A DNA stretch of 64,000 nucleotides from Candidatus Nanoarchaeia archaeon (GTDB taxonomy: Archaea; Nanobdellota; Nanobdellia; Woesearchaeales; GW2011-AR4), in NCBI GenBank assembly GCA_035288865.1, contig DATDZA010000035.1, positions 6,758 to 70,757 on the forward strand. Reading direction: 5' to 3'. The notes below the pieces were generated by a model. That model did not search any database. It was not told the DNA's origin and was given only the letters and a program-made list of their open reading frames with translations. Each line of letters opens with the position of its first letter. The first letter of the stretch is position 1. Positions 30,401 to 56,779 of this stretch are shown in pieces. The position numbers and the translations under genes are program-made.

Positions 30401-30672
30401 ATATGAGCATACAAGGCAGTAAATCTATAATGGGCTCAATGGATTTCAACGGGCAGCAGTATCTTAACACCGTCATAGAGTACCGAGGCTTTGATGATAA
30501 CCTGTGCGTCTTAGTGGATAGCTACAACGTGGCAAATTCAGATCCCTCTTCTGGAATAGCGTGCGCGCAGAAGGGGCAAGATTTCTACGTGCTTGCCCAG
30601 GGAAGCCAATTTACAAAATTAAATCCTGATGATGTATGGCTGGATTTAACCTCCAAGTTGAGGATAAAATGA
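27484..30672 (+). CDS. locus gene A: large exported Cys-rich protein with IPT/TIG-like domain
   Basis: 1062-aa ORF. There are two N-terminal hydrophobic segments; an alternative start at ATG 27586 (MKIKNKNSREHLMFVTFLIFLISLNFVYS) is preceded by GGGGAG. It has many Cys, including vicinal CC, and a ~50-aa internal duplication (CPAC[ST][PS]PG[ST]TDVKARVL[KQ]AQSC...SSMDCLV). An IPT-like segment reads ...SVTPNPVKTGATLTINGKSL...GQYTVRIYAA.... Confidence 0.8.
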   Translation: MKRGKMGATVNNKIRAFSIYALIILLFSLLRGDRMKIKNKNSREHLMFVTFLIFLISLNFVYSTGESCISDSDCNGGEICSGSVCTAQNLCGDGVCSGETPVSCPQDCKYCDDKCDPQGCFPQSYGKRIYTPYFGTCYPSCGFKGGSCLSNPNQCSYPVVNAGYETWDCEGYCCVSSSSTVTVTASHTPQNPSASSTVVITVGSSQVVNFLDINVGSTGKETCLNTNTCTFSFLASVYGTTSYDYYGTARSQAIELGRSGTNTITLGGGSSQLTATPNSVNIGVGENKPNQATISGGSGGYSIKEACNSAIAWCDLLGPNKDSLYVEGRSAGSTAIKVKDSVNAEVTVTVNVGTGGPTGCGARGWRDYPSWGQCQECDQNPPGCGGRGCGEAEAFCDGTNWNNQYSPFVKDSDKGTATSGHACPCAGSTQLCNGQPRPTTPACPQGQTYQCVNTPPETGNFWVCRSGTSSCPACSPPGSTDVKARVLKAQSCLPVGASSMDCLVTITNGFGGCSISRTPRFPGSSIISCNKISGCGTGADLFSMIENGPGNCVGAAGPWRYETGGSGTCPACTSPGTTDVKARVLQAQSCMTPSPSSMDCLVSTVNSWGGGQIKRRCCKPGGSEPRDDTIDTPNGRIIDLISSCCDLPESRWAYMDVTDGGGIDNELPKIDSVTPNPVKTGATLTINGKSLVATVQYFDSARVMRTYIGHTNSAATQIIIPVPSDFKPGQYTVRIYAAADRISNEVPVTVIAGTQKCSPDGSACGYCEEESQCLLDPLTPTETQCISSGQYSGDNFCDKGQWTTRTKLLALKLLKLKSADYVLFCDKKEVSLNTLQYLTASSQDAYTALSNFDPNNFCVLKNNNAVIGGASLNGNLSTNSGSINVFGVTNCNGAMAFNDNQYHPCGSNNVWYNNGLNSIIFSSTSISISSDQEQTSFIVNIIQSIIDAIKGLIIKSPYDESYLNSIMKFRQLYMSIQGSKSIMGSMDFNGQQYLNTVIEYRGFDDNLCVLVDSYNVANSDPSSGIACAQKGQDFYVLAQGSQFTKLNPDDVWLDLTSKLRIK

Positions 30673-38707: not shown

Positions 38708-39186
38708 GGAAATCGCAGCTCTATGGCCAGATTTTTATTTACATCCTGACGATACTCCTAATATTTTTTATTCTAATTTATGGATACAACGCAATTTCTA
38801 ATTTTAAAGGCAGGACTGAACAGATAGTTTCATTGAAACTTGGCGAAGAAATCAAGAATTCTGTGCAAAGCATAACTCCAGATTTTGGAAGTGTGGTTAA
38901 AAAGGAACTTGACATTGGAGGCGCTTCTGAGATATGTTTTGTTGAGAGCTATAATATCCCTAGCCTTCCAATTGATACAAGAAACAAATATCCCTTAATA
39001 CAGGATAGCGTGGACTCGAAAAGCGGCAAGAATGTTTTTTTGGTCGGGAAAAATGCCGAAACATCTTTTTATGGTGGAATCATTTCAGTTGAGCCGGACC
39101 TACTCTGCATTGCTCCAAAGGGTGGAAGAGTAAATTTGAAATTGGAAGGTATGGGTGACCATGCTGATATAACTAAGTGGACTTAA
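38704..39186 (+). CDS. locus gene D: class III (pilin-like) leader protein, unknown function
   Basis: 160-aa ORF whose start overlaps the stop of C (ATGA). Leader MRKSQLYGQIFIYILTILLIFFILIYG. Confidence 0.7.
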   Translation: MRKSQLYGQIFIYILTILLIFFILIYGYNAISNFKGRTEQIVSLKLGEEIKNSVQSITPDFGSVVKKELDIGGASEICFVESYNIPSLPIDTRNKYPLIQDSVDSKSGKNVFLVGKNAETSFYGGIISVEPDLLCIAPKGGRVNLKLEGMGDHADITKWT

Positions 39187-39187
39187 A

Positions 39188-40216
39188 ATGAGAAATAAAA
39201 AAGCCTTTGAGATACAGTTCAACTGGATTTTTGTGCTTATAGCTGGAGCCGCAATACTGGTAATTTTCTCATTGGTAATATTCAAGCAAAAAAGCTTATC
39301 TGAGCAATCTACAAACAGCATTGCGCTTAGAAGCATAGAGTCTGTTGTCGCCGGCACCAGCGTCAGCACAGACGTATCAAGCTTGATAACTGTGCCGGAT
39401 TTGAGCATAGGAGTTGACTGCGGCAAAATTTCAATAGGTAAAATTTCAAAGCAGTATCCGCGGCTGGTTTTATTTTCTCCGTCATTAATAAAAGGCAACA
39501 AGATAATCGCGCAGACTTTATCTTTCAGCGCGCCTTATAAGTCTTCAAATCTCCTTTTTATGACGAGCCAGCAGATAAAATATATTCTTATAGGTGATTC
39601 ACCTTTAATTAAATCTATAAACAAATCATTGTCATCAGAAATCAATAAGGAAATTTTTTCTTCCTACGACCCGTCAAAGATTAAAAATTCCAATAATTAC
39701 AAAGTTCGGTTTGTTTTTGACAATATAGGCTCATCACCCCTCACTTTTCCGAATTCATTATCAAAAATGCCCGACGGCGATGTTACGGCATTGAAAATAA
39801 CGGGAAATTTAGATAATGGGGTGATTGATTTTTACGAGAATAATGCCGGATCTTTTGTGAACAAAGGCACATCCTATTATATAGGGAAAGCGGCATTGAT
39901 AGGTGCAATTTACGCGGACACCGTGGAACATTATGAATGTAATATAAAGAATGTTTTTGCAAGGCATGGTATTGTTAGTGACGTGTATCTCAGCAGAACT
40001 ACTGACTTGAACAATGATGCCTTTTTGAGTTCGGAATGCAAACAGGCTTATTCAACTTCACTCTCGCTTATATCTAATATAGGAGCTGCGTCGAGAAATC
40101 TCGCGCGTGCCACGCCGCTATCGCAATCGGATGTAAACATAATTATTGGCTCTTCTGATCCGTTATCAATTCAAAATAAGGAAACTCAGAAATTTTCCTG
40201 CCCCCTTATTTATTAA
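39188..40216 (+). CDS. locus gene E: class III (pilin-like) leader protein, unknown function
   Basis: 342-aa ORF, 1 nt after D. Leader MRNKKAFEIQFNWIFVLIAGAAILVIFSLVIF. Confidence 0.7.
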   Translation: MRNKKAFEIQFNWIFVLIAGAAILVIFSLVIFKQKSLSEQSTNSIALRSIESVVAGTSVSTDVSSLITVPDLSIGVDCGKISIGKISKQYPRLVLFSPSLIKGNKIIAQTLSFSAPYKSSNLLFMTSQQIKYILIGDSPLIKSINKSLSSEINKEIFSSYDPSKIKNSNNYKVRFVFDNIGSSPLTFPNSLSKMPDGDVTALKITGNLDNGVIDFYENNAGSFVNKGTSYYIGKAALIGAIYADTVEHYECNIKNVFARHGIVSDVYLSRTTDLNNDAFLSSECKQAYSTSLSLISNIGAASRNLARATPLSQSDVNIIIGSSDPLSIQNKETQKFSCPLIY

Positions 40217-40217
40217 A

Positions 40218-40706
40218 ATGAATAATAGAAAAGCCCAGATACAGATTTTTGAGACAATAGCCGTATTAGTTGTATTTTTCATGCTTTTAGGGATAGGATT
40301 TATTTTTTATACAAAAGTTATTAGTAGCAATATTGAATCTGACACGGCAGAAATCTCCCAAAGCAAATCTATTTCAATAGCCCAGCGCGTCATGTTTCTT
40401 CCGGAAATACAATGCAGCGAGGATAGCGTTCCGAAAGAGAACTGCATTGACACTTTGAAATTAGATTCAGCAATTTCTGTCATCAATAAACCTGAGAATT
40501 CACTTTACTATTACGATTTATTTGAATTCAGTGACATAAGTATAAAAGAGATTTATCCTTCTTCCGGTGCCGCAATTCAATTGTATTCTAAATTTACAAC
40601 TGACTATAAAAATAAATTTCAAACAAATATCCCAGTTGCCTTGTATGACCCTAAAACTAAAATAAATAAATTTGGATTAATTAGCATAACGACGCAAACA
40701 AAATGA
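40218..40706 (+). CDS. locus gene F: class III (pilin-like) leader protein, unknown function
   Basis: Start taken at ATG 40218, 1 nt after E; the track start 40146 overlaps E. Leader MNNRKAQIQIFETIAVLVVFFMLLGIGFIFY. Confidence 0.7.
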   Translation: MNNRKAQIQIFETIAVLVVFFMLLGIGFIFYTKVISSNIESDTAEISQSKSISIAQRVMFLPEIQCSEDSVPKENCIDTLKLDSAISVINKPENSLYYYDLFEFSDISIKEIYPSSGAAIQLYSKFTTDYKNKFQTNIPVALYDPKTKINKFGLISITTQTK

Positions 40707-41197
40707 AAAAGGCTCAAACAGAGATATTGGGGCTTGCAATTGTAGTTGTTCTAGTGATTATCGGGACTATCCTTGTTGTAAAATTTGGATTTACCAAATC
40801 AACAAATGTTAGAAATGATTTTACAAGCTCACAGGAGGCCTCTAACATACTTAACACTTTTTTAAAAACATCAGCTCCAGATTGCTCCCAGCTTACTATG
40901 ACGGAATTATTGCAGGACTGCGCGCAGGGAACCGGATTAGTTTGCAGCAATGGTGAAGACTCGTGCAGTTTCGTCAAATCTGCCGCTACAGCAATTCTTT
41001 CAGGAACTATCGGCGCTGAAAAGAAGAAATATGAATTTCTAGCGTGCAGTAACTTTAACATGAAAGAAATAAAATGCTATGATACACCTCCTTTGGTTGA
41101 AATTGGACAATCTTGCCCAGGGCAGAAAAAATTGAAAATATTTCCAATACCAATAAATCCAGGGACAATTTACGTTAAATTGGAGATTTGCAATTAA
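40703..41197 (+). CDS. locus gene G: class III (pilin-like) leader protein, unknown function
   Basis: 164-aa ORF whose start overlaps the stop of F (ATGA). Leader MKKAQTEILGLAIVVVLVIIGTILVV, with several Cys in the mature part. Confidence 0.7.
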   Translation: MKKAQTEILGLAIVVVLVIIGTILVVKFGFTKSTNVRNDFTSSQEASNILNTFLKTSAPDCSQLTMTELLQDCAQGTGLVCSNGEDSCSFVKSAATAILSGTIGAEKKKYEFLACSNFNMKEIKCYDTPPLVEIGQSCPGQKKLKIFPIPINPGTIYVKLEICN

Positions 41198-41384
41198 AAG
41201 GTAATATGGGAAAATATATTTGAAAAAATGAAGTTATAACTAACTCATTACAAAACATAATAATCTACGAATAAAACTTCCTGCTATGTAAAATCCAAAG
41301 AGGAGACATGTTTAATGCCGTAGTTGCACAATATTAATTCCCTCCCTTACGAATTAAAGTTTTGGCCGTGTGTGGGAACTTCCG

Positions 41385-41399
41385 ATATATTTAAATATA
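41385..41399 (+). promoter_or_regulatory. TATA-like element of a candidate internal promoter for the small pilin genes
   Basis: ATATATTTAAATATA lies ~40 nt upstream of ATG 41435 in the only long gap of the locus. It is flanked by AACTTCC repeats at 41377-41383 and 41399-41405. A GAGGA RBS-like sequence is at 41426-41430. Confidence 0.35.
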
Positions 41400-41434
41400 A
41401 CTTCCTTTACAAGTTGCCTAATAAAGAGGATAAC

Positions 41435-41731
41435 ATGAGAAAAAAAGCGCAGGGTATGTCTATCAACGTGATTATCATAGCTGCCATTGGACTGGCAGTT
41501 TTAGTTGTTCTGTTCGCTATATTCACAGGCAGGCTTAACATATTCAGCTTGGGTATTTCAAAGACCGCATCCTGTGAGAATGCGTGCAAGGCACAGGCGA
41601 AAGGATTTGGAACAGAATCCAATGATGCTGCCTGCAGGGCAGATTCAACTGGAACGAGAACCTATGTTCCGGGTAAATATGACGATGTGCCAGCCGGGGG
41701 AGCATGCTGTTGTGTCCCATCCTTTAATTAA
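41435..41731 (+). CDS. locus gene H: small pilin-like protein (candidate major subunit)
   Basis: Start taken at ATG 41435, in frame within track ORF 41324. 98 aa: MRKKAQGMSINVIIIAAIGLAVLVVLFAIFTGR..., ending ...GGACCCVPSFN. It is a paralogue of gene I. Confidence 0.7.
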   Translation: MRKKAQGMSINVIIIAAIGLAVLVVLFAIFTGRLNIFSLGISKTASCENACKAQAKGFGTESNDAACRADSTGTRTYVPGKYDDVPAGGACCCVPSFN

Positions 41732-41770
41732 ACCAAATATTTATATATCTGATTCTCTAAAATTCTTGTA

Positions 41771-42049
41771 ATGGTTGGAGTTAATCGTAGGTCGCAAGGA
41801 ATGCCGGTAAATGTAATAATTATAGCAGTTCTTGCCTTGATAGTATTAGTCGTTCTGACTATTATATTTACTGGCAGGATTAGGATATTTTCATCAACTT
41901 TGGAAAGTTGCCAAGCAAAACAAGGGCAGTGTGAAACTGGCCCTTTTTGTTCATCCAACAAGGCACTTGTTACTGGAACCAACTGTCCGGAAACAGCACA
42001 AGACAAACCTAATAAAAAAATATGTTGTGTTCAAGTATTAAATCCATAA
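41771..42049 (+). CDS. locus gene I: small pilin-like protein (paralogue of H)
   Basis: 92 aa: MVGVNRRSQGMPVNVIIIAVLALIVLVVLTIIFTGR..., ending ...KKICCVQVLNP. Confidence 0.7.
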   Translation: MVGVNRRSQGMPVNVIIIAVLALIVLVVLTIIFTGRIRIFSSTLESCQAKQGQCETGPFCSSNKALVTGTNCPETAQDKPNKKICCVQVLNP

Positions 42050-42059
42050 TTTGAATAAA

Positions 42060-42182
42060 ATGCAATCTCTATTTAAAAAATCCCAATCAAGGAATGTTTT
42101 TGTATGGATTATAGGCCTTGCGCTAGCTATACTATTTCTATTGGTAGTAGGGAGGGTTTTAGGTGTCCTTAGGCCAAAGTAA
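42060..42182 (+). CDS. locus gene J: 40-aa micro-protein with pilin-like leader (tentative)
   Basis: Not in the track. ATG at 42060, stop at 42180-42182. My translation is MQSLFKKSQSRNVFVWIIGLALAILFLLVVGRVLGVLRPK. It overlaps the GTG start of K by 20 nt. Confidence 0.35.
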   Translation: MQSLFKKSQSRNVFVWIIGLALAILFLLVVGRVLGVLRPK

Positions 42183-43368
42183 TAAGGGAATTGAATGGAA
42201 CTTTCTGATTGAAATCCTTCTCCTCCTAGTTGCAACAACTCTAATAATTACAATATTTACTATAGCGGCAGGAAGGGCTGACGACAAAACATCAGAAAAT
42301 CTTTGTAGGGGATTTAACGCGATAAGATATGCTACTCAAATTGGGGAGGGTAAATTGAGTATAACTGCTGCGCCTAATGCGTGTAAAACAATAGATAAAA
42401 AAGATGTTCCTAGCAAAGATTATAAGAACAATGCCGATAGCACTAAGGACGGCGCCCAAAAAGAAATCAGAGATTTAATGGCAAGGTGCTGGTGGATGTG
42501 GCTTGAAGGAAACCAAAAAAATATGTTTGATAAAAGTTTTTATAACTGGCAAAATGGATGTTTTATATGTTATACTTTTTCAACTGGCAAAGATGTGGGA
42601 TATATGAAGTATGAGGATCTTTCGACATCTCTAAATCAACCTTATTATGCTGTAGATAAGACGGATAGATGTGCTCCTTTAGGCCAAGGAGGGAAGTGTA
42701 TGGATTCTTGCACCGAACCATTTACAACAGAAGTACCCTCGAGCAAGTGCAATCCTCAAGAAAGTTTAGCTGTAGAAATGGGCAACAAATTAATTAATCC
42801 AGACTCAACGACAGGTTCAAACTCAAAAACCGATGGGAAAACCAGCACAGGAGTTCAAATAAGAAAATGCTGCGCTGCCGAAAATGAATGTGAAAATCGG
42901 GGTGGGAGATGCCTGCCTAAGCCTGATCAAGTTTATTCGGTTCCTTATACAGGCTGGGCGTGCAAGCAAGGTCATTGCTATTTGGAACCAGACAGAATGG
43001 CATCTTATCTTGATTACATACAGGGAACAAGAGGAGCAGGCGGAGGCGCCGGAAAAGTTCTTTTCTTAAATGAGGGTGGAATCAATCCCAGAACAAAATA
43101 TGCAATTACTTTTGTAAGCCCTGGAGATAGTTCATGGAACTGGAATTTTGTTGTTAAAGCTGGAACAGCAGCAGGAGCTATAGGCGCGGGTATATTATTA
43201 CAAGCAGTTCCTGTTATTGGCACTGTTGGGGGTTTGACCATGGCGGCTGTAGCATCCTACGAGTTAATATCAGCAGGAAATCCATCTGAGTATAATTATA
43301 TTTTTGTATCAAGCTACGATAGTGTGAAAAACCAATGTGAAATAGAAGCAGGAGCTGGTGAAAAATAA
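42163..43368 (+). CDS. locus gene K: class III (pilin-like) leader protein, Cys-rich, unknown function
   Basis: 401-aa ORF with a GTG start. Leader SLGQSNKGIEWNFLIEILLLLVATTLIITIF. It contains ...IRKCCAAENECENRGGRC... and a Gly/Ala-rich hydrophobic C-terminal region. Confidence 0.7.
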   Translation: MSLGQSNKGIEWNFLIEILLLLVATTLIITIFTIAAGRADDKTSENLCRGFNAIRYATQIGEGKLSITAAPNACKTIDKKDVPSKDYKNNADSTKDGAQKEIRDLMARCWWMWLEGNQKNMFDKSFYNWQNGCFICYTFSTGKDVGYMKYEDLSTSLNQPYYAVDKTDRCAPLGQGGKCMDSCTEPFTTEVPSSKCNPQESLAVEMGNKLINPDSTTGSNSKTDGKTSTGVQIRKCCAAENECENRGGRCLPKPDQVYSVPYTGWACKQGHCYLEPDRMASYLDYIQGTRGAGGGAGKVLFLNEGGINPRTKYAITFVSPGDSSWNWNFVVKAGTAAGAIGAGILLQAVPVIGTVGGLTMAAVASYELISAGNPSEYNYIFVSSYDSVKNQCEIEAGAGEK

Positions 43369-43512
43369 TTTCAAATAAATCTGCAATAATAGAAAGCACT
43401 TTAATTAAAGCTTTAATAGCATTAGCTATATTAGCAGTAGCTATTGGGTTATATGTAATATTCAGCGGAAGATCCAGTTCGATAATTAAAAGTATTACGG
43501 ATTTGTTCTAAA

Positions 43513-44340
43513 ATGGCAGAAGCAATTCTTGGAAAAATTATTCAATGGGGTCTTTTACTTATTTTTCTATTCATCGTTATGTTTGCGTTTCTCAATCCAA
43601 AATTTGGCCTGATGCAGAAAATTGGAAAAGCATCACTAAGTTTTGAAAGATTTCTTCCCGACAGTCCAAGCAAAGATGTGGCTGCAGACCAATCCCTGCC
43701 AAAAGAAGCGACAAGCATCCAGCAAAGGTTTCTCAGTGAAATCTCAACATATTCTGACAAAAGCAATTGCCTGCTAAGATTTAGCGATCTTTCAGGCTTA
43801 GAGGATACAAAACTTGAACTTGTCAATTTCGAAGGCAAAATTTCTTCCAGAATTCAAAAACCTACAGGACAAAAGTTAAATCCCATTCCAACGGGAATAA
43901 ATGTTCAGCTTTGCAAAATTAATGCAGAGGAGCTGTATAATTGCTGCCTTAAAAATAATGAAGCTACAGATTGTAGTAAGTGCGGCTCACAAATATACTC
44001 AACGATAAGTTCTGTGTTATTATCAAATGATAAAATTGTATTGAGCAGCCTTAAGTCTGGGGAGTATAATTATGCAAAAGGATTGATATTTAAGCCAACT
44101 GCAGATAGAACGTGTTTTATTCCTGTGTATTCAGGATGGTTTACCAAACCCGGATGCGAGGCATCAGGGGATAAGTTAGATGATGATTGTATTACAGATA
44201 TAGAGATAAAAATTTCAAATTGTGGGGAATCAAAGTCATGTAAATCACCCAATCTCTGTGTATCTGCTCCTGAGTGTAGTGGCTCGGTAATAACAAACGA
44301 AGCATGCCAAAATGACCAAGTATGTTGCGCATTTAACTAA
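43513..44340 (+). CDS. locus gene M: N-terminally anchored exported protein, Cys-rich C-terminus
   Basis: 275-aa ORF. N-terminus MAEAILGKIIQWGLLLIFLFIVMFAFL, with no [KR]-[GAS] motif. It ends ...CSGSVITNEACQNDQVCCAFN. Confidence 0.7.
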   Translation: MAEAILGKIIQWGLLLIFLFIVMFAFLNPKFGLMQKIGKASLSFERFLPDSPSKDVAADQSLPKEATSIQQRFLSEISTYSDKSNCLLRFSDLSGLEDTKLELVNFEGKISSRIQKPTGQKLNPIPTGINVQLCKINAEELYNCCLKNNEATDCSKCGSQIYSTISSVLLSNDKIVLSSLKSGEYNYAKGLIFKPTADRTCFIPVYSGWFTKPGCEASGDKLDDDCITDIEIKISNCGESKSCKSPNLCVSAPECSGSVITNEACQNDQVCCAFN

Positions 44341-44341
44341 A

Positions 44342-44614
44342 ATGAAAAACAAAAGAGCTTCTGAATCAACGATATGGCTTGTTGTTGTAATTGCGCTTCT
44401 TTTACTTTTTTTCCTTATATATTCCGGAGTGCTTGGAAAACTTTACAATAAGATATTTTCAGGAACCAGTAAGCAAATAGACAGTACAAATGATGATGAT
44501 AATGACGGCGTTGCAAATTTTATGGACAAATGCCCTGGAACAGATACTGGTGAACCCGCAGACCAATCCGGATGTTCCTCGGGACAAAAAGAAAATAAGA
44601 ATCCCTTAATCTAA
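44342..44614 (+). CDS. locus gene N: small pilin-like protein with thrombospondin type 3-like Ca-binding motif
   Basis: Start taken at ATG 44342, 1 nt after M. 90 aa with leader MKNKRASESTIWLVVVIALLLLFFLIYS, then DDDNDGVANFMDKCPGTDTGEPADQSGC. Confidence 0.65.
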   Translation: MKNKRASESTIWLVVVIALLLLFFLIYSGVLGKLYNKIFSGTSKQIDSTNDDDNDGVANFMDKCPGTDTGEPADQSGCSSGQKENKNPLI

Positions 44615-44615
44615 C

Positions 44616-45302
44616 ATGAACAAAAAGAAAGGAATGGCAATAGAGGCCCTTATGAGGATCATAATAGCAATCATACTTCTTTTTATAGCGATCAAGGTTG
44701 GCCAAAAAGTGGTAAGCATTTTTGCAGGAAGTGATGCGCCAAAGAGCCTCGAGGATTTTACACAAGAGCTTAATGACCCTAATTTTAAGAACGGTGACTC
44801 CAAATCTACTTTTGTGATTTTAGATCCTGATATGGCAGTAATCGGTTTCAGCAAAAGTGCCACGGAATTTAGATGCTATGGCTGTCTTAATGACAAAGAA
44901 TATTCAGGCAAACTGATTTATTATTCAATGAAAAAGCCTGCTTATTCTGAGTGCAGTGACAAGGCGTGCGCATGTGTTTGCTTAAGTGATTTTAGCGCTT
45001 TGCCTGCTTCAGAGGGAGAAGCAAGAGAGTTATACTGCAGAAAATTTTATTGCAGGACATTAACAACAGATATTGCTTCTGATCTTTCGCTTCAAGGTCC
45101 AAGAAAAAGGTCTGGGGTGGATTTGCCTTCTTACCCTTATTGGCAAAATGGATTTATGTTTGTCAGGGCAACTAGTTCGAGTACACCTTCAAATGGAATG
45201 AATCCCCCCAACAGCGATAGAAAACAGGCAATCTGCATTGCAAAAATTAACAGAGGTGGAAATTTTTATTCTGCAGCACTTCCTTTGGCCTGCGCCAGCT
45301 AA
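44616..45302 (+). CDS. locus gene O: class III (pilin-like) leader protein, Cys-rich
   Basis: 228-aa ORF, 1 nt after N. Leader MNKKKGMAIEALMRIIIAIILLFIAIKV. Confidence 0.7.
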   Translation: MNKKKGMAIEALMRIIIAIILLFIAIKVGQKVVSIFAGSDAPKSLEDFTQELNDPNFKNGDSKSTFVILDPDMAVIGFSKSATEFRCYGCLNDKEYSGKLIYYSMKKPAYSECSDKACACVCLSDFSALPASEGEARELYCRKFYCRTLTTDIASDLSLQGPRKRSGVDLPSYPYWQNGFMFVRATSSSTPSNGMNPPNSDRKQAICIAKINRGGNFYSAALPLACAS

Positions 45303-45343
45303 TAAACAAAAATATTATAAATTGAGGATAAATTATTAATTCT

Positions 45344-45757
45344 ATGAAAAAAAGAGGACAGCTCGTAAATAAGGCTCTTATAGTTTTAATCACTTCTGCC
45401 GTAGTTATAATCACTTTTTATTCCGCTGGCAAAACGTATGGGAACAAAGAAGCTTATTATAGGCTGGCTGTAGCTAAAGACATAGCGCTTACAATAGATT
45501 ATTTGTATTCTATTCCGGGAGATGTGGAATTTATTTATCCCAATGAAGTATCTGACTATGACATTGAAATAACAGATAATTCAGTAAGAGTTTATCAGCA
45601 CGGTTCCGGAAAGCTTGACGCGACTGCTGGAATTTATGGGTATGCTGGAACATCTTACGATAAAATAAACACATTTGTTTCAGGACCGAAATATATCGAG
45701 ATTAAAAAAACAGGGAACACAATTACAGCGATTGGCCTGCAGGATAAAACAATCTGA
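45344..45757 (+). CDS. locus gene P: class III (pilin-like) leader protein
   Basis: 137-aa ORF. Leader MKKRGQLVNKALIVLITSAVVIITFY. Confidence 0.7.
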   Translation: MKKRGQLVNKALIVLITSAVVIITFYSAGKTYGNKEAYYRLAVAKDIALTIDYLYSIPGDVEFIYPNEVSDYDIEITDNSVRVYQHGSGKLDATAGIYGYAGTSYDKINTFVSGPKYIEIKKTGNTITAIGLQDKTI

Positions 45758-45768
45758 TTTAAAATACG

Positions 45769-46275
45769 ATGATACAAACTATTTTTACCAAATTCATAAA
45801 ATCAAAAAAAGCAGAATCCCAGCTTTGGGCACCCGACACTATGCTTTTTTGGATACTTTATGGGATAGTACTGGGGTTTGTTGCGGTTTTTTTTGTTATA
45901 ATTGTTGCAAAAACCGGCTCGGAACAAGCAACTATTTACGGCAACCTTGAAAGCATGTATCTTTCGCAACGATTCCTTAAATCGCCTGAGTGTTTTTCGT
46001 ATAAATATGATGGGATATTAATGGTCAATACAATAGATGCTAAAAAATTTACCAGTGAGCAGATAAATAGCTGCTACGACCCGAAGAATTTGGAAATGGC
46101 TGCATTTAGGATAACCCTGAGTTCAACTTTAATAAAATCTTTTGAGCCCGTGATGACGAAAAACTGGAATACTAATAGAGAATACGCGCAAAAACCTGCA
46201 CCGTACAATGTATTAGTTTACTCTGATGGAAAATTTTACAATGGTGAGCTAACAATTGAGATACAAAATATCTAA
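45769..46275 (+). CDS. locus gene Q: pilin-like/anchored exported protein
   Basis: 168-aa ORF. N-terminus ...KSKKAESQLWAPDTMLFWILYGIVLGFVAVFFVIIVA. Confidence 0.65.
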   Translation: MIQTIFTKFIKSKKAESQLWAPDTMLFWILYGIVLGFVAVFFVIIVAKTGSEQATIYGNLESMYLSQRFLKSPECFSYKYDGILMVNTIDAKKFTSEQINSCYDPKNLEMAAFRITLSSTLIKSFEPVMTKNWNTNREYAQKPAPYNVLVYSDGKFYNGELTIEIQNI

Positions 46276-46777
46276 AAATAAAAAAGGGATAGGGATAGAT
46301 GATGCATTGCCGCTTATAGTTTTTATACTTATTGCCGCTTTTGTAATTTTTGTTTTCCGCATATATGATAGCACAAAACTGGATAAAACAATCAAGAGCA
46401 TTCAGCAGCCAAAAGACGAAATGTATGGCCACGAAATCCTGATCAATTATCTGTCACAAACTGATTCGAAAGGCAACAGCAAAGCAAAAATTATTTCCGA
46501 GCTTTACGTTGGGGGGGAATATGACCAAATAAGTATAGATCTTCAGGCATATTTCAAATCCAAGCTTGAGCCAATAGCAAGATGGGACATTGATATTGTT
46601 ACAGTATATAATGAAAATGTACTTTCTGTAAAAGGGGGATTTTCACCGAATGCAGACAAGCGCTTTATCAATTCAATAAAAATCCCAATTAATTCCCAAA
46701 AACCAAATTACCTTAGTATTCGACTTTTTATGTCAAGGGACTTGCCAATTGATTTTTATTCTGCAAAGGTTGGATAA
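46256..46777 (+). CDS. locus gene R: class III (pilin-like) leader protein
   Basis: 173-aa ORF with a TTG start that overlaps Q by 20 nt. Leader ...SKNKKGIGIDDALPLIVFILIAAFVIFVF. Confidence 0.65.
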   Translation: MRYKISKNKKGIGIDDALPLIVFILIAAFVIFVFRIYDSTKLDKTIKSIQQPKDEMYGHEILINYLSQTDSKGNSKAKIISELYVGGEYDQISIDLQAYFKSKLEPIARWDIDIVTVYNENVLSVKGGFSPNADKRFINSIKIPINSQKPNYLSIRLFMSRDLPIDFYSAKVG

Positions 46778-46778
46778 A

Positions 46779-47912
46779 ATGCTAAGAAGAAACAAGAAAG
46801 GTATTGGATTAGAATGGTATATGCTTATTGTTGCAGTTTTCATAGGTTTTACGACCTTTTTTGTATATCATTTCAGCGGCCAAAAGATAATGGATAATTT
46901 TATTGGTGATTATCAGTTTTCTATACTAAGGTCGGTTCAAGAATCTGAAAAAACCCTCTTTTACGTCGACCAATCCGCCCAATATTCTCTTGAGCAGTCA
47001 GTCTACGATTTGGCAAATAGCGGCGGAGTTTCTGAAATTGAAATCAGTGATGAAGAAAATTTTGCGGGCTACGAATGCGGAAAATATAATGATGCTTATG
47101 TATGGTATCAAGTGATAAAAAAAGACGGGAAGTATGATGCCCAAGAATGTTTTGATGAAAAATCTGCTGAAACAAATCTTGCTTACACGTTTAATCGAAA
47201 CCTTGACAACTATCTTGTAAGTTATCCTGGCAATATACCAACTGATAACTATAAATATGAATTCAAAAATAATCTGGAGATAATCGGCCTTGCTGCATTG
47301 CCGGTTTATATTAATATTTTTAAAAAAGAAATACCGGAAGATTTCTCTACAGAAGCTCGCGAGATTAAGCCAAAACCCCTTGATGCCAAGCAGTTAGATA
47401 AAGACACCACAAAAAATTCTGAAGGATTCAGAGACTTTACAGGCACGGATTTGTGCGCCAAGGGCTCCCGATGCGTCCTTAAGGAAAATGCTTTCCAGCA
47501 GCTTGTGAAAGCGCAGGATGCTGCTGTAAAAAAAGGAATTTCGCTTGAAGTTTATTCTGCTTACAGATCATCGGAACAGCAGCAGGCACTATGGAACGGA
47601 GATACTCCGGAAAAATACGCAGACCGGTATAAAGACCCGACTGTAAGAATAAAATATGTCTGCGATCCAAAAGGTGGAGAGATCAAATGCCCCCACTTGA
47701 GCGGCAATGTTGTTGATATAAGATTGAAAGGAAAGACAACTAAAACAATGAACAGCGCTGAATGGAATATTTTGTACAGTATTATGACTTCAGCAGACTC
47801 AAACAAGCAGCCTTTGTGGGTTAAATACTCAAACGAGCCGTGGCATTTTGAGTGCTGCAATACACCAAGATACTCAAGAGCTATAGAAAAAGGAGTGACT
47901 TCAATAGTGTAA
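46779..47912 (+). CDS. locus gene S: pilin-like leader fused to VanY/M15-type (LAS) zinc peptidase domain
   Basis: Start taken at ATG 46779, 1 nt after R. Leader MLRRNKKGIGLEWYMLIVAVFIGFTTFFVY. The C-terminal domain carries SAYRSSEQQ (from 47556), H-x6-D in CPHLSGNVVD (His 47694-47696, Asp 47715-47717) and EPWHFE (His 47844-47846). This is the D,D-carboxypeptidase VanY / L-Ala-D-Glu peptidase motif set. Confidence 0.7.
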   Translation: MLRRNKKGIGLEWYMLIVAVFIGFTTFFVYHFSGQKIMDNFIGDYQFSILRSVQESEKTLFYVDQSAQYSLEQSVYDLANSGGVSEIEISDEENFAGYECGKYNDAYVWYQVIKKDGKYDAQECFDEKSAETNLAYTFNRNLDNYLVSYPGNIPTDNYKYEFKNNLEIIGLAALPVYINIFKKEIPEDFSTEAREIKPKPLDAKQLDKDTTKNSEGFRDFTGTDLCAKGSRCVLKENAFQQLVKAQDAAVKKGISLEVYSAYRSSEQQQALWNGDTPEKYADRYKDPTVRIKYVCDPKGGEIKCPHLSGNVVDIRLKGKTTKTMNSAEWNILYSIMTSADSNKQPLWVKYSNEPWHFECCNTPRYSRAIEKGVTSIV

Positions 47913-47917
47913 ATAAA

Positions 47918-49696
47918 ATGGAAACAAAAGATTTAATTTTATTGCTGATGATTCCTGTAATGCTGGTAGGAATAATTACTTTTGTTAATAATAATTCCAT
48001 AACTGGAAATGTTGTCGCTGAGCAATCTGATAATGAAAAAATTGGAACTTATTCCGTCATGCCTTCTTTCAGAGCAAAGATTGATTACAGTCTGCAGGAT
48101 TATTCTGATTTAAAAATTAAATTAAAAACTGCAATTGATAAATGCTTTGCAAGTAAGCAACAGGATGTCAAAGATTGCATCAGGACCGAAACAAATAAAG
48201 ATGGATATAATTGGAATTGCAATGAAAAAGATTCTGACGTGCTTTACGATTTTACAGACAAGCTGAAAGAATGCATTAATCTTGAAAATGAAAATTATGT
48301 ATGCAGGTTTTCTTTTGATTCAAGAGGCTTTCTGAACACGGAAAAACCTAAAAGAAATTTTGAGATTAAATTAACAAATTGGTATTATCCAAGAATAAAA
48401 GCTGAATTGTTTGAAGATGACGATATTCTTCTTGGGACAGAGTTTATTGAAGCAGGAAAACTGTTTTATACTGATTATGAAAACAAGGACAAGGAAAGTA
48501 AAAATTTAGATTCTATTACTATTAAAATTAATTATGAAGATGGAATTCCAGTTGTTACTGATTCACATGCAACTTTTAAAGATAAAAATATTGACAGGAC
48601 AGTAGGATTAAGCAAAATATTTTTAATTTACAAATCCAAAGAAGGCATTAAATTCATCGACGAGCGTTTTGAGTCAAGCTTCAGAGGCCCAGAGCCTGCA
48701 AATACAATAATTGACCTGCCGCGCATGCAGGGTATTGATTTTTGCGCAAAAACGGGGAAAAAAGTTACTGCTTATGACGCCTCGGACGGAAAAGTTAAAG
48801 AACGGGAAATTGTTTACAAGTTTGCAATTATGCTGCCGAATCCTGTTCCTGCTCCCGTCGAGCTATTTGATGCAAAAGATAATCTGAAAGCCGAAAATTC
48901 TGCATTATTGGCCTGGGGAAAAGATTCGCAGGCAGGCATTAAATCCTATTCAGTTTATTATTCAACGAAAGATTTTATTGATGTGGAGATGAGCGATATC
49001 AAAAAAGATAATGATATCAAAAAAGTTTCAATTTTAATTAATAATCCAATCGAAATTGAAAAAGTTGATTTGGATAAATGCGAATTTAATCCGACCAATG
49101 AGCCCTGCAAATACAAGAATTATGGCAACCCATTGTTAAAAAATAAATTGTATTACATTAAACCCGAAAATAAATTTGTTTATGTCCTTTCAGATGTTGA
49201 TTTTAAAGACGAGACTGATTATAATATTGCAATCACCGCTGTAAATGATAAAAATGAGGAGATTGACAACGACAATTCAATAAAAGACAATAAGAATATT
49301 TTTGATATTGGAAAAAATTATCTTTGGTTCTCTTCAAATGATGATTTGCCGCCTGCTAAAATAATTAATTTAAAAAAAGAAACAGGTTCGGATGGCAAGA
49401 TAAAACTATTATGGGATTTGCCGACCAAAAACCTTGATGGAACTGATTTGAGTGACCTTAAAGGATTTAATATCTATTACAGAAAATATCTTGTCGGGCC
49501 TTTTGTAATTGCGTCATCTAATATAGACTCATCTTTTTCTAAAAAGGAAATAAGAGTTTCTGATGCTGGGTGCAGCAGCTCACAGCCTCAATGCGGGTAT
49601 GAGATGGAAGAATTGGCAAGCGGGCAGTATTTTATATCTGTTGCAGCATTTGACGATAAGAATAATGAATTCAAGGACACTGCGCAATTAACTTAA
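47918..49696 (+). CDS. locus gene T: N-terminally anchored protein with FN3-like domains
   Basis: Start taken at ATG 47918 (METKDLILLLMIPVMLVGIITFV). Two FN3-like segments: ...ENSALLAWGKDSQAGIKSYSVYYS... and ...GKIKLLWDLP...GFNIYYRKY...GQYFISVAAFDDKNNE.... Confidence 0.65.
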   Translation: METKDLILLLMIPVMLVGIITFVNNNSITGNVVAEQSDNEKIGTYSVMPSFRAKIDYSLQDYSDLKIKLKTAIDKCFASKQQDVKDCIRTETNKDGYNWNCNEKDSDVLYDFTDKLKECINLENENYVCRFSFDSRGFLNTEKPKRNFEIKLTNWYYPRIKAELFEDDDILLGTEFIEAGKLFYTDYENKDKESKNLDSITIKINYEDGIPVVTDSHATFKDKNIDRTVGLSKIFLIYKSKEGIKFIDERFESSFRGPEPANTIIDLPRMQGIDFCAKTGKKVTAYDASDGKVKEREIVYKFAIMLPNPVPAPVELFDAKDNLKAENSALLAWGKDSQAGIKSYSVYYSTKDFIDVEMSDIKKDNDIKKVSILINNPIEIEKVDLDKCEFNPTNEPCKYKNYGNPLLKNKLYYIKPENKFVYVLSDVDFKDETDYNIAITAVNDKNEEIDNDNSIKDNKNIFDIGKNYLWFSSNDDLPPAKIINLKKETGSDGKIKLLWDLPTKNLDGTDLSDLKGFNIYYRKYLVGPFVIASSNIDSSFSKKEIRVSDAGCSSSQPQCGYEMEELASGQYFISVAAFDDKNNEFKDTAQLT

Positions 49697-54653: not shown

Positions 54654-54731
54654 CACAAGACACACAAAACCGGCAGTAACGCAAGTTCTTCACCAAAACC
54701 TTTTTAATACAATATTTAATAGTTAAAGACT

Positions 54732-55379: not shown

Positions 55380-55380
55380 A

Positions 55381-56010: not shown

Positions 56011-56011
56011 A

Positions 56012-56641: not shown

Positions 56642-56779
56642 AGATAAATTAAAATATAATGATTAATAATAAATTAATGAAGCTATCTCACTTTTAATAA
56701 TAATTAAAAATATTGTCAATTAAGAATATGAGAATAGCGTGAGAATTATATTAAACAATAAAAAATTCAAATAAATAAA

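What the first reader, a model, noticed from the sequence alone, without database searches (positions are those of the whole stretch)
46779..47912. Pilin-like leader fused to a VanY/M15 (LAS) peptidoglycan-type peptidase in an archaeon
Gene S begins with a class III-like leader (..RRNKKG-IGLEWYMLIVAVFIG). It ends with the full motif set of VanY-type D,D-carboxypeptidases / L-Ala-D-Glu endolysin peptidases: SAYRSSEQQ, H-x6-D (PHLSGNVVD) and EPWHFE. These enzymes cut D-amino-acid-containing murein peptides. Archaea do not make murein, and pseudomurein peptides are built from L-amino acids. A plausible role is attack on, or remodelling of, a bacterial partner or prey wall, delivered from a pilus-like structure. 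An alternative is a new substrate in an archaeal envelope. I do not know of a fusion of a lytic LAS domain to a pilin leader.
Basis: partly seen in the sequence, partly recalled or inferred. Interest (0 to 1): 0.75.

Follow-up and report, generated by a model that had tools for sequence, protein, structure and literature searches.

The report
Pilin-like anchored murein peptidase, DPANN archaeon
A tiny, probably symbiotic archaeon (Woesearchaeales) encodes a bacterial-cell-wall-cutting enzyme fused to a pilin-like anchor. The gene sits in a large conserved cluster of pilin-like surface genes, which suggests that these archaea engage bacterial cell walls.

Summary
ORF 46779-47912 (+, 377 aa) starts with MLRRNKKG followed by a 24-residue hydrophobic helix. 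It ends in a VanY/M15B (LAS) domain: Pfam PF02557 scores 33.1 bits against a cut-off of 25. R263, H306, D313 and H356 are invariant in 54 homologs and E353 is at least 90% conserved. The predicted fold matches VanY, VanXYc, LdcB, VanX and Ply500.

The window is archaeal, and the closest loci are Woesearchaeota/Nanoarchaeia MAGs. The gene is the penultimate member of a + strand array of about 15 genes whose products carry the same [KR][GAS]+hydrophobic leader. The array is collinear in more than 20 MAGs.

The N-terminal "carrier" domain (aa 40-185) also occurs alone. Elsewhere it is fused to Amidase_2 or to a truncated Peptidase_M23 in place of VanY, or to the downstream gene's product. These interchangeable murein hydrolases point to bacterial peptidoglycan as the substrate.

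Three things remain unproven:
- Pilin identity. There are no profile or fold matches, and no TFF ATPase, platform protein or prepilin peptidase within the window or about 10 kb beyond each end.
- Bond specificity.
- Biological role.

Archaeal peptidoglycan hydrolases and bacterial "modular pilins" are both known. I rate this a new variant of a known kind, of moderate to high interest.

The parts
46779..47912 (+). Whole gene (377 aa plus stop codon): leader, carrier N-domain, linker and VanY/M15B domain.
   Evidence: There are 59 homologs, mostly 340-400 aa. The ATG lies 1 nt after the upstream gene's stop codon, and the next gene's ATG lies 5 nt after this gene's stop codon.
46779..46802 (+). 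Short basic leader MLRRNKKG. The putative class III cleavage site follows Gly8.
   Evidence: Sequence. [KR][KR]x[G/A/S] is conserved in all family members with a complete N-terminus.
46803..46874 (+). Hydrophobic segment, aa 9-32 (IGLEWYMLIVAVFIGFTTFFVYHF). It is either a membrane anchor or a pilin-type alpha1-N helix.
   Evidence: AlphaFold2 predicts a helix at aa 6-32. The segment is conserved in the family.
46896..47333 (+). Carrier N-domain, aa 40-185. It has a long helix, a beta-hairpin sheet, a second helix and more strands, with an invariant Cys100/Cys124 pair. Its fold is unknown.
   Evidence: Alignments A1 and A3. The models have pLDDT 55-85 and 68. Foldseek finds no match. The domain also occurs alone, or fused to Amidase_2, to M23 or to the downstream protein.
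47334..47423 (+). Low-complexity, low-confidence linker, aa 186-215.
   Evidence: pLDDT is 52-56 for aa 181-200, and aa 191-195 fall below 50. Linker length varies across the family: the alignment has 539 columns for proteins of about 370 aa.
47424..47909 (+). VanY/M15B (LAS) zinc peptidase domain, aa 216-377. Key residues: R263 (47565), Q268 (47580), H306 (47694), D313 (47715), E353 (47835), H356 (47844). Invariant cysteines: C226/C232, C295/C304 and C359-C360.
   Evidence: pLDDT is about 88-96 over aa 221-377.
38704..49696 (+). Array of about 15 co-directional, tightly packed genes, 13 of them with [KR][GAS]+hydrophobic leaders. Gene starts: 38704, 39188, 40218, 40703, 41435, 41771, 42163, 43513, 44342, 44616, 45344, 45769, 46256 (TTG start), 46779 and 47918.
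   Evidence: Homologs are collinear in more than 20 Woesearchaeota/Nanoarchaeia loci at 24-60% identity.
41435..42049 (+). Two small paralogous proteins of 98 and 92 aa with leaders KKAQ/RRSQ followed by GM(S/P)(I/V)NVIIIA.... They are candidate major filament subunits.
   Evidence: the two are 41% identical (E = 3e-5). They are conserved in nearly all related loci. They match no pilin family profile.
47918..49696 (+). Downstream 592-aa partner protein with an N-terminal hydrophobic anchor and faint fn3 hits in orthologs. It always follows the carrier gene. In three lineages it is fused directly to the carrier N-domain.
   Evidence: P0059 residues 187-451 are 44% identical to it (E = 2e-66). 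P0219 and P0221 show the same fusion.
27484..38707 (+). Three large upstream surface proteins: 1062 aa (Cys-rich), 716 aa (leader-like N-terminus), and 1974 aa (TSP3_bac repeats, Big_3_3, C-terminal TM segment and a basic tail). The giant protein is syntenic with the array.

Best explanation
The gene encodes a modular, pilin-like surface protein.

Proposed mechanism:
1. A short basic leader and a roughly 24-residue hydrophobic helix (class-III-signal-like) take the protein across the membrane and hold it at the outer face. It may enter a filament or pseudopilus built from the 13-15 similarly led proteins of the same operon-like array.
2. A family-specific 'carrier' domain (aa 40-185) and a flexible linker present a C-terminal zinc peptidase of the VanY/LdcB/Ply500 (M15, LAS) type.
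3. The organism is a Woesearchaeales/DPANN archaeon, which is not expected to make murein. The enzyme most likely cuts stem peptides of bacterial peptidoglycan outside the cell, thinning or opening the wall of a bacterial partner or prey where the surface apparatus makes contact.

Shown here: domain identity, intact catalytic residues, leader conservation, locus conservation, and interchange of the effector module.

Inferred: cleavage of the leader, incorporation into a filament, the bond that is cut, and a bacterial target.
For: (1) VanY domain. Pfam gives 33.1 bits against a cut-off of 25. Foldseek gives probability 1.00 to VanY-B 5hnm, VanXYc 4mut, LdcB 4ox3/4jid, VanX 1r44 and endolysin Ply500 2vo9. 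A profile alignment to LdcB lines up the YRS..Q, H..G.A.D and EPWH motifs.

(2) Purifying selection on the active site. R263, H306, D313, H356 and E358 are invariant, and E353 and Q268 are at least 90% conserved, in 54 sequences with 42% mean column identity. Eight invariant cysteines are also present, which I read as disulfide pairs of an extracytoplasmic protein.

(3) Leader. Every complete homolog has [KR][KR]x[G/A/S] immediately before the hydrophobic helix. Ten of the 11 strict leader matches in the window fall in this cluster.

(4) Synteny. The order giant protein, four led genes, small putative subunits, further led genes, carrier-VanY, 590-aa partner, RPA is collinear in more than 20 MAG or metagenome loci.

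(5) Effector swapping on the same carrier in the same slot:
- Amidase_2: P0057, E = 1.6e-31, loci L001/L002/L045.
- Peptidase_M23: P0215, 44.3 bits against a cut-off of 28.7.
- No effector: P0208, in the same slot in L071.
- Fusion to the downstream partner: P0059, P0219 and P0221.
The three unrelated catalytic folds share only murein as a substrate.

(6) Relatives of the VanY domain. An exhaustive search of 1.84 billion representatives found 923 relatives. Of the best 150, 43 are T4SS_pilin (PF18895)+VanY fusions. One was checked and sits in a bacterial context (L062). Pilus-subunit-borne VanY therefore recurs in another group.

(7) Literature. Archaeal secreted peptidoglycan hydrolases kill bacteria, and such hydrolases are prominent in Nanoarchaeota (PMC12352652). 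Woesearchaeota carry GH23 lytic transglycosylases (PMC9723730). DPANN genomes hold islands of unrecognisably divergent pilins (PMC6393860).
Against: No protein of the array matches any pilin, archaellin or class-III-signal family in Pfam or NCBIfam, even at E up to 10.

The carrier-domain model is of low confidence (pLDDT 68, pTM 0.34) and has no Foldseek match.

No TFF ATPase, platform protein or prepilin peptidase is encoded in the 64-kb window or in the roughly 10 kb beyond each end that other contigs supplied. One groundwater study states that type IV pilus components are missing from DPANN genomes (bioRxiv 10.1101/2020.05.14.094862).

The closest solved relatives, VanY and LdcB, are carboxypeptidases, which trim stem peptides rather than lyse cells. 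No peptidoglycan-binding domain was found.

The M23 example rests on one 3.8-kb contig, and its domain is truncated at profile position 63 of 96.

Some lineages lack the effector altogether, so it is dispensable for the apparatus. No bacterial host of any DPANN archaeon has been demonstrated, to my knowledge.
Confidence: 0.5

Rival explanations
1. Membrane-anchored ectoenzyme for scavenging. The N-terminus is an uncleaved signal anchor, or a class III signal used only for surface display as with Sulfolobus bindosome proteins. The VanY domain trims D-Ala or other residues from free muropeptides and wall debris to feed an auxotrophic cell. No filament and no live target are involved.
For: The best sequence and structure matches are carboxypeptidases (LdcB, VanY, VanXYc). 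No TFF machinery lies nearby. No pilin-family profile hits were found. Class III signal peptides on non-filament, nutrient-capturing proteins are established (bioRxiv 10.64898/2026.04.22.720090). DPANN archaea are thought to recycle cellular compounds (PMC9723730).
Against: The gene is embedded in, and strictly syntenic with, a roughly 15-gene array that includes small subunit-like proteins and giant adhesin-like proteins. It is not next to transporters. The alternative effectors, Amidase_2 and M23, cut the murein mesh itself (the glycan-peptide bond and peptide cross-bridges), which is more typical of wall breaching than of trimming. Fusions of the carrier to the downstream structural partner suggest a structural complex.
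Confidence: 0.27
2. The substrate is not bacterial murein. The LAS domain acts on an archaeal envelope polymer, either the organism's own (to insert the surface apparatus) or that of an archaeal host. Candidates are pseudomurein or another peptide-containing wall.
For: All cultivated DPANN archaea have archaeal hosts (PMC11291902). The LAS fold is versatile. Substrate specificity cannot be read from the sequence.
Against: The interchangeable effectors on the same carrier are Amidase_2 (a MurNAc-L-Ala amidase family) and M23. Both are families annotated as murein hydrolases (Pfam family descriptions). As far as I know, the described pseudomurein endoisopeptidases are cysteine peptidases rather than LAS enzymes. 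The nearest relatives of the domain sit in murein-walled, CPR-like bacteria. Woesearchaeales are not known to have a wall polymer (my own knowledge, not tested here).
Confidence: 0.08
3. The LAS domain serves as a non-catalytic, wall-binding adhesin module: an inactive enzyme used for attachment.
For: No separate peptidoglycan-binding domain is present. Modular pilins usually carry binding modules (PMC8179133).
Against: The metal ligands (H306, D313, H356), the catalytic Glu353 and Arg263 are invariant or nearly so across 54 sequences. That is the pattern of an active enzyme.
Confidence: 0.05
4. Artefact. The gene is a bacterial (for example CPR) fragment mis-assembled or mis-binned into an archaeal contig.
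For: The VanY domain is of bacterial type, and its relatives occur in CPR-like bacteria.
Against: The same gene lies in the same position, between led archaeal genes and RPA/RadA, in more than 20 independent assemblies from different studies. GC content shows no break: 0.36-0.37 against about 0.38 for the window.
Confidence: 0.01

Closest known systems
VanY / LdcB / VanXYc / Ply500 zinc peptidases (MEROPS M15, Pfam PF02557, LAS fold)
   Same: The motif set is the same: Y-R-S-x3-Q, H-x6-D and E-x-x-H. The predicted fold is the same.
   Different: Identity to solved members is only 18-21%. The Ser of the usual S-x-H motif is replaced by an invariant Cys in C-P-H. Four extra conserved cysteine positions or pairs are present. 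The host is an archaeon. The domain is fused to a leader and carrier domain rather than to a Sec signal, a TM anchor or a wall-binding domain. Bond specificity is unknown.
Modular type IV pilins of bacteria (S. sanguinis PilB/PilC; Raynaud et al. 2021, PMC8179133)
   Same: The layout is the same: class III-type leader, small N-terminal module, linker, then a grafted functional module. Modules are exchanged between lineages. Predicted peptidase modules (S74, M26) were already listed for bacteria.
   Different: This example is archaeal. The N-module matches no pilin signature or fold. The grafted modules are murein hydrolases (VanY, Amidase_2, M23). The assembly machinery has not been identified.
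Secreted archaeal peptidoglycan hydrolases (Woldo/Danwoldo of Halogranum; survey in PMC12352652) and Woesearchaeota GH23 lytic transglycosylases (PMC9723730)
   Same: Both are bacterial-type murein hydrolases encoded by archaea that lack murein, and they are prominent in Nanoarchaeota/Woesearchaeales. A target in bacteria is presumed.
   Different: Those proteins combine a catalytic domain with a known wall-binding domain and carry Sec or Tat signals. The survey lists PG_binding_1+VanY in Nitrososphaeria and LysM+SLT in Woesearchaeales. The present family has no binding domain, has a class-III-like leader, and is part of a conserved multi-gene surface locus.
Sulfolobus bindosome substrate-binding proteins (class III signal peptide on non-pilin cargo)
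   Same: A functional extracellular domain sits behind a prepilin-type signal, and the gene is encoded away from the assembly ATPase and platform genes (bioRxiv 10.64898/2026.04.22.720090).
   Different: The cargo here is a hydrolase, not a solute-binding protein. No ABC transporter lies nearby. Only one cluster gene (40218) gives even a faint BasB hit, at E = 0.011.
Specialised wall hydrolases of trans-envelope machines (VirB1, PrgK/TraG of T4SS, FlgJ) and T4SS_pilin+VanY fusions seen here in CPR-like bacteria
   Same: A murein hydrolase is physically coupled to a filament or secretion apparatus. The VanY domains of the T4SS_pilin fusions are among the nearest relatives of this domain.
   Different: Those enzymes open the producer's own wall. 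Here the producer is not expected to have one. The pilin module is of a different type (VirB2-like, as opposed to class-III-like).

Membership tests
Peptidase M15B / VanY (PF02557), LAS superfamily | Significant match to the family profile above the curated threshold | tested here: met
   PF02557 gives E = 5.7e-8 and 33.1 bits against a cut-off of 25, covering profile positions 4-127 of 132. Of the 59 homologs, 44 carry a precomputed PF02557 or PF01427 hit.
Peptidase M15B / VanY (PF02557), LAS superfamily | Zinc ligands H-x6-D plus a C-terminal H; catalytic Glu in E-x-x-H; Arg of the Y-R-S motif | tested here: met
   H306, D313, H356 and R263 are invariant, and E353 is at least 90% conserved, in 54 sequences. 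They align to the corresponding LdcB and VanX motifs. Coordinates were checked.
Peptidase M15B / VanY (PF02557), LAS superfamily | LAS fold | tested here: met
   The AlphaFold2 C-domain has pLDDT of about 88-96. Foldseek gives probability 1.00 to 5hnm, 4mut, 4ox3, 4jid, 1r44 and 2vo9, with target-normalised TM-scores of 0.39 (1r44) to 0.51.
Peptidase M15B / VanY (PF02557), LAS superfamily | His-Asp-His geometry around a zinc ion, and hydrolysis of D-amino-acid-containing wall peptides | not testable with these tools
   Model coordinates cannot be inspected here, and no biochemistry is available.
Archaeal type IV pilin-like proteins (class III signal peptide substrates) | Short basic leader ending in a small residue (G/A/S), followed directly by about 20 hydrophobic residues | tested here: met
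   The sequence is MLRRNKKG|IGLEWYMLIVAVFIGFTTFFVYHF. The pattern is conserved in all complete homologs. Thirteen neighbouring genes share it.
Archaeal type IV pilin-like proteins (class III signal peptide substrates) | Similarity to a recognised pilin or archaellin family profile | tested here: not met
   No cluster protein hits any pilin, archaellin or class-III-signal family in Pfam or NCBIfam at E up to 1-10. Pilins are known to diverge beyond detection in DPANN (PMC6393860).
Archaeal type IV pilin-like proteins (class III signal peptide substrates) | Pilin fold: N-terminal helix packed on a beta-sheet | tested here: inconclusive
   The models show a long helix, four to six strands and an extra helix, but at pLDDT 55-85 and 68 with pTM 0.34. 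No Foldseek hit has E below 2.
Archaeal type IV pilin-like proteins (class III signal peptide substrates) | Genome encodes a prepilin peptidase, a TFF ATPase and a platform protein | tested here: inconclusive
   None lies in the 64-kb window or in about 10 kb beyond each end. The rest of the genome could not be reached.
Archaeal type IV pilin-like proteins (class III signal peptide substrates) | Leader cleavage and incorporation into a filament | not testable with these tools
   This needs an experiment.
Modular pilins (pilin module + linker + effector module) | N-terminal carrier module that exists on its own and carries different C-terminal modules in different lineages | tested here: met
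   The carrier occurs alone (P0208, same slot). It also carries VanY (most members), Amidase_2 (P0057), truncated M23 (P0215) and the downstream partner (P0059, P0219, P0221).
Modular archaeal peptidoglycan hydrolases as defined in PMC12352652 | Catalytic peptidoglycan-hydrolase domain plus a recognised wall-binding domain, with a Sec or Tat signal | tested here: not met
   Only the catalytic domain is found. The leader is class-III-like. Architectures of this kind do not appear in the passages of that paper's tables that I retrieved.
Phage endolysins (L-Ala-D-Glu peptidases of the M15 family) | Close sequence relatives in phage genomes | tested here: not met
   tblastn of aa 215-377 against 50,697 phage records found no match at E = 1e-3 or better. 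Only the fold resembles Ply500 and LysB4.

The most novel reading that the evidence does not exclude
Woesearchaeales (DPANN archaea) build a dedicated, conserved surface filament or pseudopilus. One of its subunits is a carrier for interchangeable murein hydrolases (VanY, Amidase_2, M23). They use it to pierce the peptidoglycan of living bacteria. This would be a cross-domain, archaeon-on-bacterium episymbiosis or predation apparatus, paralleled in CPR bacteria by VanY fused to T4SS pilins.
Probability: 0.3. Interest if true: 0.85.

Novelty: new variant of a known kind. Interest (0 to 1): 0.62.

Why it matters
All cultivated DPANN archaea live on other archaea. Whether the abundant groundwater and sediment Woesearchaeales interact with bacteria is an open question, so far supported only by scattered lytic transglycosylase genes.

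This locus gives a concrete, testable handle. A conserved array of about 20 kb carries a subunit-like protein that bears murein-specific hydrolases of three unrelated folds. If the enzyme is active on murein and located on filaments or at contact sites, three things would follow:
- It would identify a molecular apparatus for archaeon-bacterium contact.
- It would extend the 'modular pilin' principle to archaea.
- It would add a delivery route to the newly recognised repertoire of archaeal antibacterial peptidoglycan hydrolases: class-III-led, with no wall-binding domain, and so missed by the Sec/Tat and binding-domain criteria of the survey in PMC12352652.

Tried and rejected
- **Phage endolysin origin.** tblastn of the VanY domain against the phage collection found nothing.
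- **Pilin-family membership by profile.** Pfam and NCBIfam scans of ten cluster proteins at permissive E-values gave only noise. phmmer of the small subunit candidate against PDB sequences also gave noise.
- **Pilin fold for the carrier domain.** A separate AlphaFold2 model (pLDDT 68) and a Foldseek search gave no hit with E below 2. This is inconclusive, not negative.
- **Assembly machinery.** Every ORF of at least 120 aa in the window was scanned, together with about 10 kb beyond each end recovered through edge genes. The flanks hold only replication, ribosomal, SecY and lipid or fatty-acid genes.
- **Taxonomy of distant VanY relatives.** Cluster look-up returned no names. I used gene context instead.
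- **Domain phylogeny.** A neighbour-joining tree of 181 VanY domains recovered a core clade of 87 sequences, 79 of which carry the carrier domain. Deeper branching among T4SS_pilin fusions and other architectures was not resolved, so I make no claim about the donor lineage.
- **First N-domain homolog search.** The single-sequence search found only 4 proteins because of the word prefilter. The profile search was informative.
- **Functions of neighbouring large proteins.** The 716-aa and 592-aa proteins gave no PDB sequence hits.
- **Contamination or mis-binning.** Rejected on synteny.
Full report
**1.

The ORF runs from ATG 46779 to the stop codon at 47910-47912 on the + strand and encodes 377 aa. 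The mechanical ORF list extends it to a TTG at 46749. The N-termini of 54 homologs start at the equivalent of the ATG. That ATG lies one base after the stop codon of the preceding gene, and the next gene's ATG (47918) lies five bases after this gene's stop codon. The genes are therefore packed like an operon.

The N-terminus reads MLRRNKKG followed by IGLEWYMLIVAVFIGFTTFFVYHF. Its nucleotide coordinates for His306, Asp313 and His356 are exact.

**2. The C-terminal domain is a VanY/M15B LAS peptidase**

- Pfam PF02557 matches aa 234-357 at E = 5.7e-8, with 33.1 bits against a gathering score of 25.
- A profile of the family hits B. subtilis LdcB/YodJ (4ox3) at E = 1.4e-4. It also hits VanX, B. 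anthracis LdcB, VanXYc, Ply500 and VanY-B. The Y-R-S-x3-Q, H-x2-G-x-A-x-D and E-P-W-H motifs are in register.
- An AlphaFold2 model built on 54 sequences has pLDDT of about 88-96 over aa 221-377. Foldseek matches it, at probability 1.00, to VanY-B (5hnm, 5zhf), VanXYc (4mut), LdcB (4ox3, 4jid, 4mph), VanX (1r44) and the Listeria phage endolysin Ply500 (2vo9).
- In the 54-sequence alignment (mean column identity 42%), R263, H306, D313, H356 and E358 are invariant, and Q268 and E353 are at least 90% conserved. So are eight cysteines: C100/C124, C226/C232, C295/C304 and C359-C360.

I read this as an active, probably disulfide-stabilised, extracytoplasmic enzyme. The bond it cuts cannot be deduced. 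The same Pfam family holds DD- and LD-carboxypeptidases as well as a lytic L-Ala-D-Glu endopeptidase.

**3. The organism is a DPANN archaeon**

The window encodes PolD DP1 and DP2, MCM, Cdc6/Orc1, RadA, TBP, RPA, aIF2-beta, RNase P p30 and archaeal or eukaryotic-type ribosomal proteins.

Every locus in the GTDB species set that encodes a close homolog is titled Candidatus Woesearchaeota, Nanoarchaeota or Nanoarchaeia. Some carry what looks like a placeholder label, 'uncultured Methanosarcinales archaeon'. GC content is 0.33-0.44 with no break at the gene.

That such archaea lack murein is established background knowledge. It was not tested here.

**4. The leader is part of a much larger pattern**

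From 38704 to 47912, thirteen consecutive + strand genes begin with a short basic stretch ending in K/R-G/A/S, followed directly by about 20 hydrophobic residues. Examples are MRNKKA|FEIQFNWIFVLIAGAAILVIF, MKKA|QTEILGLAIVVVLVIIGTILVV, MRKKA|QGMSINVIIIAAIGLAVLVVLF and MNKKKG|MAIEALMRIIIAIILLFIAI.

A strict regular expression applied to all six frames of the window finds 11 instances. Ten are in this region and on this strand. Two small paralogs of 98 and 92 aa (41435 and 41771) look like filament subunits. Three large Cys-rich or repeat-rich surface proteins lie upstream (27484-38707; TSP3_bac and Big_3_3 in the 1974-aa protein).

Within the VanY family itself, every member with a complete N-terminus keeps [KR][KR]x[G/A/S] at the junction. 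A prepilin-peptidase site would require this. A plain signal anchor would not.

**5. The locus is conserved**

Contigs were found through the VanY domain (27 loci), through the carrier domain (31 loci) and through individual homologs. They show the same order: giant protein, four led genes, small subunits, a variable middle, carrier-VanY, a protein of about 590 aa, then RPA. The order holds in more than 20 independent assemblies at 24-60% protein identity. This excludes mis-assembly and shows that the fusion protein is a standing component of the apparatus.

**6. The N-terminal domain is a carrier with exchangeable cargo**

Residues 40-185 form a family-specific domain (alignment A3, 55% mean column identity). 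hmmsearch over all fetched loci shows carrier plus VanY in nearly every case. The exceptions are informative.

- P0057 (loci L001, L002, L045) has the carrier followed by a full-length Amidase_2 domain (E = 1.6e-31) in the same slot.
- P0215 has the carrier followed by Peptidase_M23 (44.3 bits against a cut-off of 28.7). That ORF stops at profile position 63 of 96 and comes from a single 3.8-kb contig.
- P0208 is the carrier alone, in the same slot, followed by the 581-aa partner and RPA.
- P0059, P0219 and P0221 fuse the carrier directly to a homolog of the downstream gene (44% identity over 277 residues, E = 2e-66).

VanY, Amidase_2 and M23 are unrelated folds whose common denominator is bacterial peptidoglycan. 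This is the strongest argument here that murein is the substrate. The fusions to the downstream protein argue that the carrier and the 592-aa partner work together outside the cell.

**7. Wider relatives of the domain**

An exhaustive profile search of 1.84 billion representative proteins found 923 relatives at E of 1e-3 or better, 165 at 1e-10 or better and 36 at 1e-30 or better. The top group has the same architecture.

Beyond it, 43 of the best 150 hits combine a VirB2-like T4SS_pilin domain (PF18895) with a C-terminal VanY. The one example examined lies among bacterial genes (ClpB, ribosomal protein L9, S41 peptidase, D-Tyr-tRNA deacylase). I interpret these as CPR/Patescibacteria-type proteins, but that taxonomy is inferred.

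A further family of about 300 aa, with a different class-III-like leader, sits in an archaeal context near RPA and RadA. Giant proteins of 2401-3064 aa also end in this domain.

A neighbour-joining tree gave a coherent core clade for the carrier family but did not resolve deeper relations. No phage genome holds a detectable relative.

**8. What is not supported**

- None of the cluster proteins matches a pilin, archaellin or class-III-signal family.
- The carrier domain is modelled as a long helix, a beta-hairpin sheet, a second helix and more strands, but with low confidence and no structural neighbour.
- No TFF ATPase, platform protein or A24 peptidase is encoded in the window or in the extra 10 kb recovered on each side. 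The rest of the genome was out of reach.

The literature is divided on pili in DPANN. One groundwater study says type IV pilus components are missing in DPANN (bioRxiv 10.1101/2020.05.14.094862). Others report TFF systems in some DPANN (bioRxiv 10.64898/2026.04.22.720090) and 'dark-matter' islands of unrecognisably divergent pilins next to FlaI/TadC in DPANN genomes (PMC6393860). The pilus part of the model is therefore a reasonable inference, not a result.

**9. Most likely mechanism**

- The leader and hydrophobic helix direct the protein to the outer face of the membrane.
- The helix either stays as an anchor or, after cleavage behind Gly8, serves as the polymerisation helix that places the protein in or at the tip of a filament or pseudopilus formed by the array's small subunits.
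- The carrier domain docks to the 592-aa partner.
- The flexible linker (aa 186-215, low pLDDT) lets the zinc peptidase reach the stem peptides of a bacterial wall at the point of contact.

I give this 0.5. The main rival, at 0.27, is a surface ectoenzyme that trims muropeptides from debris for nutrition without any filament. Minor rivals are a non-murein archaeal substrate (0.08), a catalytically silent adhesin (0.05) and an artefact (0.01).

**10. Comparison with what is known, and novelty**

Each ingredient is known.

- Archaea encode bacterial-type peptidoglycan hydrolases, and some of these kill bacteria (PMC12352652). That survey lists VanY as a catalytic domain. It found PG_binding_1+VanY in Nitrososphaeria and LysM+SLT in Woesearchaeales.
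- Woesearchaeota carry GH23 transglycosylases (PMC9723730).
- Bacteria graft functional modules, including predicted peptidases, onto pilins (PMC8179133).
- NCBI already labels homologs of this protein as D-alanyl-D-alanine carboxypeptidase family proteins.

What I did not find described is the combination: an archaeal class-III-led carrier protein with exchangeable murein hydrolases, fixed in a conserved Woesearchaeal multi-gene surface locus, with a parallel in T4SS-pilin-VanY fusions. I classify it as a new variant of a known kind. Interest is 0.62, because it makes the question 'do DPANN archaea attack or attach to bacteria?' experimentally approachable.

Noticed in passing
window 53982-57757 (+); L066 1-9989: The archaeal genome carries bacterial-type lipid genes. 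These are a HAD hydrolase, three tandem PlsC-type acyltransferases (PF01553) and a GpsA-type NAD-dependent glycerol-3-phosphate dehydrogenase. Just beyond the window's right end, a contig of the same organism adds FabA, three thiolases, a ketoreductase, a KAS-III-like protein and a biotin carboxylase. The acyltransferases after RadA are syntenic in another Woesearchaeota MAG.
   Followed up: partly
P0111, P0120, P0123, P0132, P0138 and 38 others; L062 8001-8873: Of the 150 best VanY-domain relatives, 43 fuse a VirB2-like T4SS_pilin domain (PF18895) to a C-terminal VanY domain. Many also have Sec-type signals and Cys-rich spacers. The one context examined is bacterial. I did not find this architecture mentioned in the Patescibacteria T4SS paper (PMC12102498).
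   Followed up: partly
P0059 (L064 6001-7377, L065), P0219, P0221: In three lineages the carrier N-domain is fused in frame to the N-terminal part of the homolog of the downstream gene (window 47918-49696), and no hydrolase domain is present. This is a Rosetta-stone link between the two proteins.
   Followed up: yes
L063 186-1067 (P0130); also P0105, P0110, P0134, P0139, P0166, P0199: A second family of about 300 aa combines a different class-III-like leader and N-domain with VanY. It lies in an archaeal contig, again a few genes upstream of RPA-like and RadA genes.
   Followed up: partly
L017 2760-9965; P0096 (3064 aa), P0103 (968 aa): Giant surface proteins of 968-3064 aa end in the same VanY domain. 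One of them is in a MAG that also has the ordinary carrier-VanY locus (L012 and L017 come from the same assembly).
   Followed up: no
window 30636-32786 (+): A 716-aa protein with a leader-like N-terminus (KSLKSQ|ITMMIIVGLVLSILIGIVFYI) contains a central stretch that looks to my eye like a TIM-barrel glycosidase (…GIRIFPNWWNW…IQNEHNGG…). It has no hit in Pfam, NCBIfam or PDB sequences. It may be another enzyme-bearing led protein.
   Followed up: partly
window 32783-38707 (+): A 1974-aa Cys-rich protein has bacterial TSP3 repeats, a Big_3_3 domain, a C-terminal TM segment and a long Lys/Arg-rich tail. It is syntenic with the array in many MAGs and may be an adhesin of the apparatus.
   Followed up: no
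L004, L007, L008, L011, L012, L017, L018, L023, L024, L026, L027: Contigs that are collinear with Woesearchaeota loci are titled 'uncultured Methanosarcinales archaeon' in their public records. This is probably a placeholder or an erroneous taxonomic label.
   Followed up: no
window 21707-22558 (+): A SpoIIM-family membrane protein (PF01944, E = 2.3e-14) is present in this archaeal genome. It is the only strict leader-regex match outside the cluster.
   Followed up: no
L070 1809-2633: The carrier+Peptidase_M23 ORF ends at M23 profile position 63 of 96, before the HxH motif, and about 220 non-coding bases follow. It could be a pseudogene, or a frameshift or assembly error in a low-coverage contig.
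   Followed up: partly
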